Translations under genes and position numbers: made by a program
Assembly: GCF_003334765.1 (NCBI RefSeq)
Contig: NZ_QOWT01000002.1
Origin: Escherichia coli
Lineage (GTDB): Bacteria; Pseudomonadota; Gammaproteobacteria; Enterobacterales; Enterobacteriaceae
DNA length: 64,000 nt
Direction: 5' to 3' (one strand)
In this document: one piece after another, positions 21,199-33,632 of the stretch
Layout: every line of letters starts with the position of its first letter
How positions within the stretch are numbered: position 1 is the first letter of the stretch
Notes under the pieces: generated by a model
Database searches by the model: none
Told to the model about the DNA's origin: nothing
What the model saw: the letters and a program-made list of their open reading frames with translations, nothing else

Positions 21199-22107
21199 TC
21201 AAAGATTAATCCAACTATCCATGGTCAACTTAGATTTATTATTTCCAGCAAACCACTTACGAGGGGAAACAACTATTTTATCTTCGAAAGTATTTAACCA
21301 TGCCCCCCACCAACTATATGTACTATTGGCTATTATATTGTTTTTACACTTTGACATTAAAAACATATCAATCGCACTGTACTCGCATTCAGAATTATTA
21401 ACAACGTAATAATTAGGTTGATTAGCAAATGTATTCTCAGCCCATTTCACATCATCTGAAAATACGATAATCACCTGTTCTCCTTGAACATCCTCAATAT
21501 AACGAATAGCCTTTTCATAGTAATCCATGGGCAACACCCCATGAAATTTAGAGGCGTGAGGGTTGGTGATGTAGTCTCCACGCCTGATATGTAGTGAAGT
21601 TGTGTTAGCATTCTCACATATCACTTTTTTGTAAATATGCAAGTCATTACATAAATTGAGCAAATCTTCATTAATCTGGAATAATGGGAGAATCATATCA
21701 CGATGACTATCTATCAATGTAGCATCCTGGAAATAAGAAAATAGACAATAACCATTTTTAACCTGTAATTTACAGTTGTTCAAAAATTCATAAAATTTTG
21801 CTTCAGGCAAATAGTTTTTTTTTAGTAGAACTCCAAATATAGAATTTGTAACAAATAAGGGCAAACGATATCTATTTACATGTCGTATTATGGATATCTC
21901 TTTTTTTTCCTTACTTGTAGTCAGACGATCATAACATATGTTAAATTGATTCAATTCAAATCTTCTACGTGTATCACGATTTGAGCAATCTAAAAAATAG
22001 CTATCGTCTAAAACTAATGATCTTTGTTTAAGCTTTCTCTGTAAGATATATGCCGCAGCATACTGAAACATTTGATTACCTAATCCACCAGACAAACAAC
22101 TATACAT
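21199..22107 (-). CDS. Alpha-1,2-fucosyltransferase (GT11 family), O-antigen
   Basis: 302-aa AT-rich ORF with GT11 signatures GGLGNQMFQYA and HIRRGDY. Confidence 0.85.
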   Translation of the reverse strand: MYSCLSGGLGNQMFQYAAAYILQRKLKQRSLVLDDSYFLDCSNRDTRRRFELNQFNICYDRLTTSKEKKEISIIRHVNRYRLPLFVTNSIFGVLLKKNYLPEAKFYEFLNNCKLQVKNGYCLFSYFQDATLIDSHRDMILPLFQINEDLLNLCNDLHIYKKVICENANTTSLHIRRGDYITNPHASKFHGVLPMDYYEKAIRYIEDVQGEQVIIVFSDDVKWAENTFANQPNYYVVNNSECEYSAIDMFLMSKCKNNIIANSTYSWWGAWLNTFEDKIVVSPRKWFAGNNKSKLTMDSWINL

Positions 22108-22118
22108 AGCGTCAACCT

Positions 22119-22883
22119 TTATTTTATTAGTGCTTTACAAAAATGATAGAGGCAAGAAAGAAAATTCGTAATAGTTCTTTTTTTTAAGAATTCTCGCAGA
22201 GAATAACTAGCACATTCATAATATGCGAGTGCTGATTTTTGCGTAGATTTGTTATGAATTCGATAATTTAGCAAACACTCACTTAGATTATCCCAGCGTA
22301 TATTCGGACATTCATTTAAGATTCTGAGCCATAGATCATAATCTTCTGAATTAAAACCACCACAATAACCTCGCTGCTTTAGTATAACATCTTTCTTGAA
22401 CATCAAAGTAGGATGCGCAAAACAATTTTTAAAAGGAAGTATCTTATTTATCTTATTATGATTTGGATATTTTAATTCTTTAATAAACTCACCGTTTTCA
22501 TTGATAAGTCTGATCCCAGTCCCCACCATTTCTAAATCATTCTGCAACATATACATATATTGTTTTTCTAGACGTAACGGCAGTGAAACATCGTCGGAAT
22601 CCATTCTGGCAATAATAGAGTATTTACACTTAGTTACTGCGTAATTTAATGCAAACGATAACTGCCCTATTTCTAATGTATAAATTTTAACTCTGTTATC
22701 CAGCTCTGTATAATGCTTCAGCTGTTTTGCTATCTCGAAACAATCCCCTCCATTTGCAATTATTATTAACTCAAAGTCAGAGTATGTCTGATTTAAGATA
22801 CTATCAATTGAAATATCAACATATTTATCATATCGGTGTACAGCCATTATTACTGAAATCATATCTAATATTCTCAATGACAT
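22119..22883 (-). CDS. GT2-family glycosyltransferase, O-antigen (probable beta-1,3-galactosyltransferase)
   Basis: ORF 22119..22949; likely start MSLRIL at 22883; GT-A fold with DxD-like SDD motif. Confidence 0.8.
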   Translation of the reverse strand: MSLRILDMISVIMAVHRYDKYVDISIDSILNQTYSDFELIIIANGGDCFEIAKQLKHYTELDNRVKIYTLEIGQLSFALNYAVTKCKYSIIARMDSDDVSLPLRLEKQYMYMLQNDLEMVGTGIRLINENGEFIKELKYPNHNKINKILPFKNCFAHPTLMFKKDVILKQRGYCGGFNSEDYDLWLRILNECPNIRWDNLSECLLNYRIHNKSTQKSALAYYECASYSLREFLKKRTITNFLSCLYHFCKALIK

Positions 22884-22945
22884 TTTTTTATATTTAAAGC
22901 AATATGTCTGACTATGCTTAGCCCACCTATGAATAGAGCTATAAA

Positions 22946-31551: not shown

Positions 31552-31577
31552 TTTACATTTCCTGTTCTTAAAAATAC

Positions 31578-32594
31578 TCAACCTAAAATAATGCTTTTAT
31601 ATGCTGAAGCATAGTTCTCGATAACAAATTTCCCGGAGGCACGAATTGCCTGTTCCCGATAATTTTCATAGTCATCGAATATTTTATCCAATTTATATCC
31701 AATGTCGTCTTCAGTATTTTCCACAAGTAACCCATTACCCTCAATTAATTCAAAACATCCGCCCACATCACTTAACAGGAGTGGTATTGCAGCTGTGTGA
31801 GCCTCAAGGCCTGACATAGGCAAACCTTCACTATCGGATATCAGTGAAAATAAATCATACTCATGATAGTTATAAAAATTATTGACCTCACCCAAAAAAT
31901 GAATATTTTCACATTCACTGAATTGTTTCTTCAATGATTCTAACCTTTCCCCCCCTCCTACGATATGGAGGCTATACTGGGGCTTTTTCGATATTACATT
32001 CGCTAACAATTCGGGGCGCTTAGGGTGTGTTAACCTACCAACAAACAGAACCTTATACTGGAGTTGTTTATTATTACATCTCGGCATCTGAGGCACTGAA
32101 TTCGATACTGTGATTATCTTTGGTTCTTTTATACCAATATTCTCAATTGCCTTTTTTTCATCACTTTTGGAAACACACCATATAACATCAGTTAATAAAG
32201 AAAGGTATTTTTCAACAATGCAAAAAATTGATTTTAGGCGACCACCATTATATAAACAAGACCATCCATGCGAAACATAAATACATTTAAAGTCGACTAG
32301 TAATCGAACTAACCTGGCATAAACTCCGGCATTAGCAGAACTTGCTATTAACGTTGAAATGTTATTTTCTTTTAAAATTTTTCTCAATTTAAACAATGTA
32401 AGGAAGTCAAAATATTTTTTAATACCTGGTATGACAAAAACTCCGGCAAAGACATCTTTATGTGTGAGCCATCCTTCTTCAGATGTAATAAGAAATATAT
32501 TACATTCCTCTTTAATAAGGTTAGATATTTCATTTACCCATGTTTGTGCACCACCAATTTCTGATTTTGTAACAATAAAACCAACATTTTTCAT
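31578..32594 (-). CDS. GT4 (group 1) glycosyltransferase, O-antigen
   Basis: 338-aa AT-rich ORF with the retaining GT-B motif (SDSEGLP ... E); likely adds the second sugar to the lipid-linked initiating residue. Confidence 0.8.
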
Positions 32595-32612
32595 ATATCA
32601 AAATTCCAAAAA

Positions 32613-33632
32613 TTATTTTTTATATCCATTTGGATTGTTTGTTTGCCAACGCCATACATCTTCGATCATTTCTTTCAAATTTTTTTCCGCTTTCCAGGAA
32701 AGCTTTTTATGTGCCAAATCAGCAGACGCCCATGACTCCGCAACATCCCCCTCACGTCTATTACAAATAGCAACAGGTATACTCTTTTTAGTGACTATCT
32801 CAAACATTTTTACAATCTCTAAAACAGAATAACCTTGACCAGTACCTAAATTAAAAGCTTCATAATTGACATCATTTAAAAACATATATTCTAATGCTTT
32901 AACATGCCCTTTAGCCAAATCACAGACATGTATATAGTCTCTTACTCCTGTACCATCTTTAGTTGGATAATCGTTGCCATAAATATTTAATACAGGAAGT
33001 TGATTTTGTGCAACTTTAGATATATAAGGAACCAGATTATTAGGGATCCCGTTAGGATTTTCACCAATCATCCCGGACTTATGTGCTCCGATTGGATTAA
33101 AGTAACGCAGTGCAATTACTGATTTATTATTATCACTATCACAATAATCACTCAAAATTATTTCTATTATAAATTTCGATGTCCCATATGGGTTTGTAGT
33201 TTCACCAATTCGTCTATCTTCCGTATGGGGAGGGATACTGTTACTCCCATAAACAGTAGCAGAAGAGCTAAATATCATTTTATTAATGTTATATCTCTTC
33301 ATGCATTCAAGTAATACTAAAGTTCCACCAACATTATTAGAATAATACTCTAAGGGCTTTAACTTAGACTCACCTACAGATTTTAACGATGCAAAGTGAA
33401 TTACAGCATCGATATGGTGTCTTGAAAAAATCTCATCAAGTAGATTTTTATCACGGATATCACCTTGATAAGAAATAATTTTCTTATTAGTTATTTGCTC
33501 TACTCTTTTTAATGATTCTATAGAGGAATTGACAAAATTATCTATCGAAACGACATCATGACCATTATTAAGTAACTCAAGTATGGTATGGGATCCAATA
33601 TATCCTGCACCGCCTGTTACGAAAATCACCAT
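32613..33632 (-). CDS. GalE-family UDP-sugar 4-epimerase (first gene of O-antigen cluster)
   Basis: ORF 32613..33701; start MVIFVTGGAGYIGSH at 33632 preceded by AGGAGG; YxxxK short-chain dehydrogenase catalytic motif. Confidence 0.85.
   Translation of the reverse strand: MVIFVTGGAGYIGSHTILELLNNGHDVVSIDNFVNSSIESLKRVEQITNKKIISYQGDIRDKNLLDEIFSRHHIDAVIHFASLKSVGESKLKPLEYYSNNVGGTLVLLECMKRYNINKMIFSSSATVYGSNSIPPHTEDRRIGETTNPYGTSKFIIEIILSDYCDSDNNKSVIALRYFNPIGAHKSGMIGENPNGIPNNLVPYISKVAQNQLPVLNIYGNDYPTKDGTGVRDYIHVCDLAKGHVKALEYMFLNDVNYEAFNLGTGQGYSVLEIVKMFEIVTKKSIPVAICNRREGDVAESWASADLAHKKLSWKAEKNLKEMIEDVWRWQTNNPNGYKK

What the first reader, a model, noticed from the sequence alone, without database searches (positions are those of the whole stretch)
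21199..33632. Sharp compositional mosaic inside the O-antigen cluster
The serotype-specific genes (both ends of the cluster, manC and the manB 3' end) are visibly AT-rich with long A/T runs, while the gmm-fcl-gmd and manB 5' segments have host-like GC. Transitions coincide with the repeat boundaries, supporting a foreign low-GC cluster later patched with resident colanic-acid sequence.
Basis: seen in the sequence. Interest (0 to 1): 0.3.

Follow-up and report, generated by a model that had tools for sequence, protein, structure and literature searches.

The report
O86 O-antigen cluster patched by colanic-acid genes
This is the known E. coli O86 O-antigen gene cluster: AT-rich imported genes interrupted by two blocks of sugar-pathway genes that recombination has overwritten, and keeps overwriting, with copies from the colanic-acid cluster 17-18 kb away. 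The pattern is real but ordinary and already described for this kind of locus.

Summary
The GC steps are real. GC3 is 0.23-0.31 in the low segments and 0.59-0.69 in the high ones.

The locus is the E. coli O86 O-antigen cluster, found in 80 of 5426 complete genomes. The two high-GC blocks match the colanic-acid (CA) paralogues in the same window:
- manB 5' part: 95-100% identical to cpsG.
- gmm-fcl-gmd: 95.0% identical over 2536 nt without gaps.

manC, the gmm and manB 3' ends and a 124-nt island inside gmd remain diverged, so earlier low-GC genes were overwritten rather than a CA module inserted.

One refinement: most of the patch is not a copy of this strain's CA allele. It travels with the cluster, is shared with O127/O90/O128/O173-type clusters, and falls within E. 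coli CA allele diversity. Conversion recurs:
- this window has a private 208-419 bp tract copied from its own cpsG;
- O86 strain SW4848 has a 1.1 kb tract;
- O127 strain E2348/69 has at least 1.5 kb.

Between O86 and O127 the CA-like segments are 7-fold more diverged than the low-GC ones. manB/cpsG conversion and GC mosaics in O-antigen clusters are established. Low interest.

Seen in passing: a variable poly-G tract, G10 here, splits wzy.

The parts
21199..26106 (-). Serotype-specific low-GC block. It holds an alpha-1,2-fucosyltransferase (21199-22107, WbnK-like), a GT2 glycosyltransferase (22119-22862), wzy (22874-24273, split by a poly-G tract), wbnI, a GT6 galactosyltransferase (24197-24901), and wzx (24904-26106).
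   Evidence: At least 99% identical in 80 of 5426 complete E. coli genomes, where it is annotated as O86 family wzx/wzy and wbnI. GC 0.28-0.32 and GC3 0.23-0.28. NCBIfam assigns wbnI to GT family 6.
26126..26462 (-). manB 3' end, a relic of a diverged low-GC manB that is specific to O86.
   Evidence: GC 0.40, GC3 0.31. About 60-72% identical to cpsG. At least 99% identical only in the 80 O86 genomes. One further genome matches at 80-90% and the rest at 60-80%. In O127, O128, O173 and O157 the manB gene is CA-like to within about 60-90 nt of the stop.
26463..26881 (-). Private gene-conversion tract in manB, copied from this strain's own cpsG. The minimum tract is 26600-26807 and the maximum is 26463-26881.
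   Evidence: 100% identical to 43453-43871 of the window. The window differs from manB of five other O86 genomes at the same 12 sites, 26600-26807, and all 12 match the resident cpsG. No complete genome carries this allele; the best match is 98.5%.
26882..27514 (-). manB 5' part. This is older colanic-acid-type sequence carried by the O86 cluster.
   Evidence: 33 mismatches to the resident cpsG in 633 nt, about 95% identity. Identical in the five other O86 genomes compared, apart from one site in XH990. Homology starts exactly at the manB start codon, 27514.
27518..28966 (-). manC, a low-GC gene that has not been converted.
   Evidence: GC 0.364, GC3 0.24. Global identity to cpsB is 60.2%, and the local blastn alignments reach 67-75%. 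99.5% identical to O127 manC, 83% to O128 and 73.5% to O157. NCBIfam TIGR01479.
28959..29015 (-). gmm 3' end, a low-GC relic that overlaps the manC start.
   Evidence: GC 0.32. Only 18-35% of positions match the CA copy at the same register, i.e. no homology. O-antigen gmm is 166 aa against 159 aa for the CA gene.
29016..31551 (-). Colanic-acid-type patch: gmm 5' part (29016-29459), fcl (29462-30427) and gmd (30430-31551).
   Evidence: Ungapped 95.0% match to 47301-49836. GC 0.54, GC3 0.59-0.69. Outside the relic islands its divergence from CA alleles (2.78%) equals CA-CA (2.38%) and O-O (2.89%) divergence.
30628..30751 (-). Relic island inside gmd (codons 268-308) that has escaped conversion.
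   Evidence: 46% GC against 56-59% in CA copies, and about 70% identical to them. Conserved in the O86, O127, O90/O127-family (S1), O128, O173-family and ARS-C101 O-antigen copies. All 26 sites that are fixed in O copies and absent from 10 CA copies lie at 30634-30749. 37 nt differences, 28 of them at third positions, and 9 amino-acid differences. It is overwritten in O86 strain SW4848.
31578..33632 (-). Low-GC 5' genes: a GT4 glycosyltransferase (31578-32594, WbnH-like) and gne/galE-type UDP-hexose 4-epimerase (32613-33632).
   Evidence: GC 0.33-0.34. NCBIfam galE TIGR01179. 99.5-99.8% identical to O127.
33674..33681 (-). ops element (GGCGGTAG) of the JUMPStart region upstream of the cluster.
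   Evidence: Motif found by script. It lies between galF (33942-34835) and the gne start at 33632.
43134..44504 (-). Resident colanic-acid cpsG, the partner and donor for manB.
   Evidence: blastn match of 26190-27514 to 43181-44504 at 91.5%.
47301..49836 (-). Resident colanic-acid gmm-fcl-gmd, the partner repeat, 18285 nt from the O-antigen copy in direct orientation.

Best explanation
The region is the E. coli O86 O-antigen gene cluster, which lies between galF and gnd on the minus strand. Its glycosyltransferase, flippase, polymerase, gne and manC genes keep the low GC of a foreign source.

The GDP-L-fucose pathway genes have paralogues in the colanic-acid (CA) cluster 17-18 kb away, in the same orientation. 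Homologous recombination between the two sets has replaced most of gmd, fcl, gmm and manB with E. coli CA-type sequence. The recombination is non-reciprocal gene conversion and is presumed to depend on RecA. Short diverged relics remain where homology was too low or the tracts ended.

The process continues. The patch moves with the cluster from host to host and is re-converted piecemeal by whichever CA allele is present. In this strain the latest event copied 208-419 bp of its own cpsG into manB.

Shown here: the composition steps, the paralogy, the relics, the sharing across serogroups, and strain-specific tracts that match each strain's own CA copy.

Inferred: the recombination mechanism, RecA dependence, and the view that the relics persist because their divergence blocks heteroduplex formation.
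For: GC and GC3 steps fall at the repeat boundaries.

The high-GC blocks are collinear with, and 95-100% identical to, the CA genes in the same window.

The breakpoints lie inside genes (gmm, manB), and there is an internal gmd island of about 70% identity. This requires pre-existing homologous genes.

The unpatched state exists in O157, where gmd, fcl, gmm and manC are 38-39% GC and about 60-73% identical to their CA counterparts.

Strain-specific conversion tracts match each strain's own CA copy:
- Window manB: 12 of 12 private differences match the strain's own cpsG.
- SW4848: 58 of 58 differences from the O86 consensus match its own CA copy over 29696-30802.
- E2348/69: no mismatch to its own CA copy over 29116-30615. 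RefSeq gives its two Fcl proteins the same accession.

Outside the relics, O-CA, O-O and CA-CA divergences are equal at 2.4-2.9%.

Between O86 and O127 the low-GC segments differ at 18 of 3852 sites (16 in the coding segments plus 2 in the 309-nt intergenic region) and the CA-like segments at 113 of 3588 sites. The Fisher test was run on 16/3852 against 113/3588 and gave p = 3e-21.

71 of the 80 O86 genomes keep the window's patch at 99% or more, so about 9 have been altered further.

Literature: manB of O157 was replaced by the CA gene and evolves by gene conversion (PMC3158064, citing Samuel et al. [quoted passage not shown]
Against: No donor CA allele at 99% or more was found for the bulk of the gmm-fcl-gmd patch among 5426 genomes; the best is 98.6%. 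Its exact origin is therefore unknown, and it may itself be a mosaic of several donors.

The private manB tract rests on this single sequence. No second genome carries it, so an assembly or polishing error between paralogues cannot be excluded from the sequence alone.

RecA dependence and the direction of each older event are inferred, not shown.
Confidence: 0.9

Rival explanations
1. The CA module was duplicated into the locus. On this reading the O86-family cluster never had low-GC gmd, fcl, gmm or manB. It recruited a copy of the CA genes by duplication or insertion and added low-GC manC and transferase genes around them.
For: The patch ends exactly at the gmd and manB start codons. No low-GC version of the O86-family gmd or fcl is known.
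Against: Two junctions lie inside genes, with in-frame diverged remainders: the last 57 nt of gmm and the last 336 nt of manB. A 124-nt in-frame island of about 70% identity sits in the middle of gmd, and a cluster of O-specific sites lies in its first 30 nt. These are what partial overwriting of older homologues leaves behind, not what insertion of a module leaves. wcaI and cpsB, which lie between gmm and cpsG in the CA cluster, are absent.
Confidence: 0.06
2. Composition is driven by selection rather than by recombination. The pathway genes are GC-rich because highly expressed or conserved enzymes adopt host codon usage (amelioration), while membrane and transferase genes stay AT-rich.
For: The high-GC genes are all conserved cytoplasmic enzymes.
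Against: manC is an equally conserved enzyme and stays at 36% GC between the two patches. The same enzymes are 38-39% GC in O157. Identity to the paralogue is 95-100% at synonymous sites, with steps inside single genes. Amelioration cannot produce runs of 419-1500 nt identical to each strain's own CA copy.
Confidence: 0.01
3. The mosaic is an assembly artefact, produced when reads from the CA paralogues were assembled or polished into the O-antigen locus.
For: The 419-bp tract identical to cpsG is found in no other genome.
Against: The overall mosaic is reproduced at 99% or more in complete genomes from many laboratories: 80 for the serotype-specific genes, 86 for manC and 71 for the fcl region. 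It is also present in the finished O127 reference genome. The canonical O86 allele differs from cpsG at 12 sites in 208 nt within the tract, which should be enough for reads to map uniquely. Comparable tracts occur in SW4848 and E2348/69.
Confidence: 0.03

Closest known systems
E. coli O86 O-antigen gene cluster (described by Guo et al. 2005, Feng et al. 2005 and Yi et al. 2005; cited in PMC7685785. The original papers are not held in the library, so their content is from the review and my memory.)
   Same: Gene content and order match: gne, GT4, gmd, fcl, gmm, manC, manB, wzx, wbnI, wzy, GT2 and the alpha-1,2-fucosyltransferase, between galF and gnd. The serotype-specific genes are at least 99% identical to 80 RefSeq genomes annotated as O86 family wzx/wzy. 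The first seven genes are shared with O127/O90, as the review states.
   Different: This copy carries a private 12-site cpsG-derived tract in manB and a G10 tract that splits wzy.
manB/cpsG chimerism and gene conversion between O-antigen and colanic-acid clusters. Sources: Samuel et al. 2004 and Iguchi et al. 2011 for O157 (PMC3158064). Jensen and Reeves 2001 for Salmonella is from my memory.
   Same: manB is CA-like over most of its length, with a diverged 3' end. It is more than 95% identical to the strain's own cpsG in places, and it varies more between strains than its neighbours do.
   Different: In the O86/O127/O128/O173-type clusters gmd, fcl and gmm are converted too. In O157 they remain at 38-39% GC. 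In O86 the CA-like part of manB stops about 336 nt before the stop codon, against about 60-90 nt in the other clusters.
[quoted passage not shown]
   Same: The same pair of direct repeats 17-18 kb apart is present here. The same reciprocal outcome, loss of the region between them, is therefore possible.
   Different: No deletion has happened in this window. Only the non-reciprocal outcome, conversion, is seen.
GC mosaicism of O-antigen clusters in general, for example the Salmonella LT2 rfb cluster (PMC3715488, section 'GC Content'; PMC5359238)
   Same: The cluster has segments of distinct, mostly low GC, read as lateral acquisition and stepwise assembly.
   Different: Here the high-GC segments are not a third foreign source. 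They are copies of a paralogous locus in the host species.

Membership tests
E. coli O86 O-antigen gene cluster | O86-specific wzx and wzy sequences | tested here: met
   21199-26106 is at least 99% identical to 80 RefSeq genomes, where the genes are annotated as O86 family flippase and polymerase.
E. coli O86 O-antigen gene cluster | Position between galF and gnd, with JUMPStart/ops upstream | tested here: met
   galF is at 33942-34835 and gnd at 19671-21077. ops GGCGGTAG is at 33674-33681.
E. coli O86 O-antigen gene cluster | Full gene set for a Fuc/Gal/GalNAc unit: the GDP-Fuc pathway, gne, four transferases including the GT6 WbnI, wzx, and an intact wzy | tested here: inconclusive
   All genes are present. 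However, wzy is split by a G10 tract and ends at an early TGA, so whether O antigen is polymerised in this strain is unknown.
Gene conversion between paralogues (concerted evolution) | Two paralogous copies in one genome with tracts of near-identity bounded by diverged sequence | tested here: met
   A 100% run over 26463-26881 is flanked by 85-95% identity. In gmm-fcl-gmd, mismatch-free runs span 29389-29602 and 30207-30495.
Gene conversion between paralogues (concerted evolution) | Within one lineage of the recipient, variant sites match the copy in the same genome rather than orthologues | tested here: met
   12 of 12 sites in the window, 58 of 58 in SW4848, and a 1.5 kb mismatch-free stretch in E2348/69.
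Gene conversion between paralogues (concerted evolution) | Non-reciprocal transfer, with the donor unchanged | tested here: met
   The window's cpsG is identical at all variable sites to cpsG of elppa4 and SW4848, and the SW4848 CA gmm-fcl-gmd is essentially identical to elppa4's. The donors therefore kept their allele.
Gene conversion between paralogues (concerted evolution) | Dependence on the homologous recombination machinery (RecA, RecBCD/RecF) | not testable with these tools
   Needs genetics.

The most novel reading that the evidence does not exclude
The 124-nt gmd island (codons 268-308, 9 amino-acid differences from the CA Gmd) may be more than a passive relic. It is identical or nearly so in the O-antigen gmd of six different cluster types, although the sequence on both sides is freely exchanged with CA alleles. 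That would fit selection for a Gmd variant specialised for O-antigen supply, for example through altered regulation or partner contacts. Conversions that erase it, as in SW4848, would then be mildly deleterious.

Separately, the patchwork of CA alleles inside O-antigen clusters could serve as a record of the hosts a cluster has passed through.
Probability: 0.1. Interest if true: 0.35.

Novelty: already known. Interest (0 to 1): 0.15.

Why it matters
The finding matters little beyond confirmation. It is a clear example of how a laterally acquired surface-antigen locus is partly homogenised with a host paralogue.

There are two practical consequences:
- The direct repeats make the O-antigen cluster prone to deletion.
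- manB, gmd and fcl are unreliable markers for typing or dating O-antigen clusters, because they evolve about 7 times faster than their low-GC neighbours through conversion.

The strain-specific tract shows that the process operates on the time scale of individual clones.

Tried and rejected
Tried without result:
- The original O86 papers (PMC1317457) and Samuel et al. 2004 (PMC516595) are not held, so I relied on reviews and papers that cite them.
- NCBIfam gave no family for wzx, the wzy halves or the fucosyltransferase. Their names come from the RefSeq annotation of identical sequences.
- I looked for the donor of the gmm-fcl-gmd patch among 5426 genomes and found no CA allele above 98.6%.
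- I looked for relatives of the O86 manB 3' end. Apart from one genome at 80-90%, everything outside O86 is at 60-80%, and the listed hits are all cpsG at about 70-73%.
- I tested whether the gmd island resembles the low-GC O157 gmd. It does not (68-70% identity, no better than to CA), so its source is unknown.
- A literature search for the wzy poly-G tract found nothing specific.

Considered and rejected, with reasons under the rival explanations:
- codon-usage amelioration;
- insertion of a CA module;
- assembly artefact, rejected for the mosaic as a whole but not excluded for the private manB tract.
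Full report

Yes. Sliding-window GC across 18-38 kb shows five plateaus inside the cluster:
- about 0.28 over 21200-26250;
- about 0.55 over 26400-27450;
- 0.33-0.39 over 27450-28800;
- about 0.55 over 29100-31500;
- 0.30-0.39 over 31500-33900.

I fitted a maximum-likelihood piecewise-constant model to the G+C/A+T sequence of 19600-35000. It is BIC-optimal with seven segments, with breaks at 21120, 26340, 27440, 29050, 31550 and 33960, and BIC falls from 20754 to 20146.

Third-position GC separates the classes even more strongly. It is 0.23-0.31 in the low genes and 0.59-0.69 in the high ones, and the high values match the colanic-acid genes in the same window (0.60-0.72). A/T runs of 5 or more are three times denser in the low segments.

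**2. What is the locus?**

The minus strand reads galF (33942-34835), an ops/JUMPStart element (33674-33681), and then the cluster:
- gne (32613-33632);
- a GT4 transferase (31578-32594);
- gmd, fcl, gmm, manC, manB (26126-31551);
- wzx, wbnI, wzy, a GT2 transferase and an alpha-1,2-fucosyltransferase (21199-26106).

After the cluster come gnd, ugd and wzzB. The pathway enzymes are assigned by NCBIfam. The serotype-specific part is at least 99% identical in 80 of 5426 complete E. coli genomes, where RefSeq annotates O86 family wzx/wzy and wbnI. The colanic-acid (CA) cluster follows from 36231 (wcaM) to about 58851.

**3. The high-GC blocks are paralogues of colanic-acid genes in the same window.**

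blastn of the O-antigen region against the rest of the window gives two long matches:
- 29016-31551 = 47301-49836: 2536 nt, ungapped, 95.0% identical (most of gmm, plus fcl and gmd);
- 26190-27514 = 43181-44504: 91.5% identical (manB and cpsG).

manC aligns with cpsB only at 67-75% in local blastn segments, or 60% over the whole gene.

Three boundaries are sharp:
- 31551 is the first base of the gmd start codon.
- 27514 is the first base of the manB start codon.
- 29016 lies 57 nt before the gmm stop, where the low-GC gmm tail overlaps the manC start.

The fourth boundary is graded. Identity is 100% over 26463-26881, 85% over 26371-26462 and about 70% down to 26190.

**4. Were older genes overwritten, or was a module inserted?**

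The evidence points to overwriting.
- Diverged but homologous, in-frame remnants survive: the last 57 nt of gmm, the last 336 nt of manB, and a 124-nt island in the middle of gmd (30628-30751). The island is 46% GC and about 70% identical to CA, with 37 nt differences, 28 of them at third positions, and 9 amino-acid changes.
- There is also a cluster of O-specific sites in the first 30 nt of gmd.
- The O157 cluster shows what the unconverted state looks like. Its gmd, fcl, gmm and manC are 38-39% GC and 60-73% identical to their CA counterparts, while its manB is already CA-like.

**5. Is the donor the resident copy?**

Only in part. The gmm-fcl-gmd patch is the same, with 0-3 differences, in O86 strains that carry different CA alleles: BE2-5, GPEC617, elppa4 and XH990. 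It is 95.0% identical to this strain's own CA copy.

Over 29116-30600, CA alleles across E. coli are 96.4-98.6% identical to the patch. K-12 is at 97.5% and the resident copy at about 96.8%. No CA allele reaches 99%. The patch also occurs in the O127, O90/O127-family, O128, O173-family and ARS-C101 clusters.

After masking the relic islands, mean divergence is 2.89% between O-antigen copies, 2.38% between CA copies and 2.78% between the two classes. All 26 sites that are fixed in O copies and absent from ten CA copies fall inside the gmd island. The O-antigen copies therefore draw on the same allele pool as the CA genes of the species.

**6. Conversion is recurrent and recent.**

- (a) The window's manB differs from manB of five other O86 genomes at the same 12 sites, 26600-26807, and all 12 carry the base of the window's own cpsG. 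That cpsG is identical at all variable sites to cpsG of elppa4 and SW4848, whose manB, where compared, keeps the canonical O86 allele. No complete genome has the window's allele; the best match is 98.5%. Given 4.3% divergence, a 419-nt mismatch-free run has a probability of roughly 1e-8 per start position (my arithmetic).
- (b) O86 strain SW4848 differs from the O86 consensus at 58 sites between 29696 and 30802. All 58 match its own CA copy, and the gmd island has been erased.
- (c) In O127 strain E2348/69 the O-antigen copy has no mismatch to its own CA copy over 29116-30615. RefSeq gives both Fcl proteins the same accession.
- (d) Between O86 and O127 the low-GC segments (manC, gmm tail, GT4, gne, upstream intergenic) differ at 18 of 3852 sites: 16 in the coding segments and 2 in the intergenic region. 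The CA-like segments differ at 113 of 3588 sites, about 7-fold more. The Fisher test as run used 16/3852 against 113/3588 and gave p = 3e-21.
- (e) 71 of the 80 O86 genomes keep the patch at 99% or more, so about nine have been altered further.

**7. Mechanism.**

Shown here: paralogy, direct orientation at a spacing of 17.0 and 18.3 kb, tracts of 0.2-1.5 kb that match each strain's own donor, and unchanged donors.

Inferred from general knowledge of bacterial gene conversion:
- The exchange is RecA-dependent and non-reciprocal.
- Tracts tend to stop at strongly diverged sequence, which would explain the persistence of the gmd island, of manC and of the gene tails.

The same repeats can also recombine reciprocally and delete everything between them. 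[quoted passage not shown] Strain ES1 shows a CA cluster joined through an IS5 element to an O-antigen-type gmd. That fits rearrangement at these paralogues.

Why two copies are kept rests on established knowledge rather than a test here. The CA cluster is under Rcs control and is largely silent at 37 C, so an O antigen that contains fucose needs its own GDP-fucose supply.

**8. Comparison with what is known.**

Low and segmented GC in O-antigen clusters is textbook (PMC5359238; PMC3715488). Replacement of manB by the CA gene, and its evolution by gene conversion, is published for O157 (PMC3158064, citing Samuel et al. 2004). The relationship between O86 and O90/O127, with the first seven genes shared and the downstream genes exchanged, is in the review PMC7685785, citing Feng et al. 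2005.

My data place the O86-specific junction at 26462/26463, inside manB.

Small additions from this work:
- the extent of gmd-fcl-gmm conversion across the O86/O127/O128/O173-type clusters;
- the conserved gmd relic island;
- the private tract in this strain.

None of these changes the picture.

**9. Verdict.**

The kind of feature is already known, and interest is low.

**10. Seen in passing.**

wzy (22874-24273) contains a poly-G tract, at 23747-23756 in window coordinates.
- G10 in this window and in 1217KP.
- G9 in 68 of 80 O86 genomes with identical flanks, plus at least 3 more with a flank substitution.
- G8 in 1424KP.
- G11 in Res13-Lact-PEB01-20 and 88COLEC, and probably also in JE86-ST05 and 1368KP, judged from match length only.

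Only G8 and G11 keep the frame. RefSeq annotates an intact 466-aa Wzy only for the two G11 genomes I fetched and flags the others as frameshifted. Most copies, including the window, also carry TGA in place of TTA 24 codons before the reference stop. I did not resolve whether this is phase variation, rescue by transcriptional slippage, genuine loss of polymerase, or homopolymer sequencing error.

Noticed in passing
window 23747-23756 (inside wzy, 22874-24273, minus strand): A poly-G tract splits the O86 O-antigen polymerase gene. It is G10 in this window and in 1217KP, G9 in at least 68 of 80 O86 genomes, G8 in 1424KP, and G11 in Res13-Lact-PEB01-20 and 88COLEC, where the 466-aa gene is intact. 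JE86-ST05 and 1368KP are probably G11 too, judged by match length. Only G8 and G11 are in frame, so most sequenced O86 strains carry an out-of-frame wzy. This could be a phase-variable contingency tract, rescue by slippage, or homopolymer sequencing error. I found no paper on it.
   Followed up: partly
window 22946-22948: A TGA codon lies 24 codons before the reference end of wzy. It is present in the window and in most O86 genomes examined. The same codon is TTA in 1217KP, Res13-Lact-PEB01-20 and 88COLEC. RefSeq flags it as an 'internal stop'.
   Followed up: partly
window 30628-30751: A 124-nt island in gmd is about 70% identical to all CA copies but conserved across the O86, O127, O90/O127-family, O128, O173-family and ARS-C101 O-antigen clusters. 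It holds every fixed difference between the O and CA copies. Its source is unknown, and it is not closer to the O157 low-GC gmd.
   Followed up: yes
L013 (E. coli ES1, NZ_CM184353.1), locus 6970-11030: The CA genes wza..wcaF-gmd-fcl are followed by an IS5 element and then a second, O-antigen-type gmd and transferases. wcaI-wcaM and galF are missing. This looks like a fusion or deletion between the CA and O-antigen clusters.
   Followed up: no
L005 (ARS-C101), locus 36396-37517; L008 (SW4848), locus 25299-26682: One paralogue of a pair can decay. The CA gmd of ARS-C101 has an internal stop while its O-antigen gmd is intact. The O-antigen manB of SW4848 is frameshifted while its cpsG is intact.
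   Followed up: no
window 47301-49836 compared with 43134-44504: The window's own CA cluster is itself mosaic. Its cpsG is identical at all variable sites to that of elppa4 and SW4848, but its gmm-fcl-gmd is only 97.0% identical to theirs.
   Followed up: no
window 35078-36073: A gene with intermediate GC (0.45) lies between galF and wcaM. RefSeq annotates it as GlcNAc-PP-undecaprenol 4-epimerase (Gnu-type). The cluster's own gne/galE-type gene is at 32613-33632.
   Followed up: no
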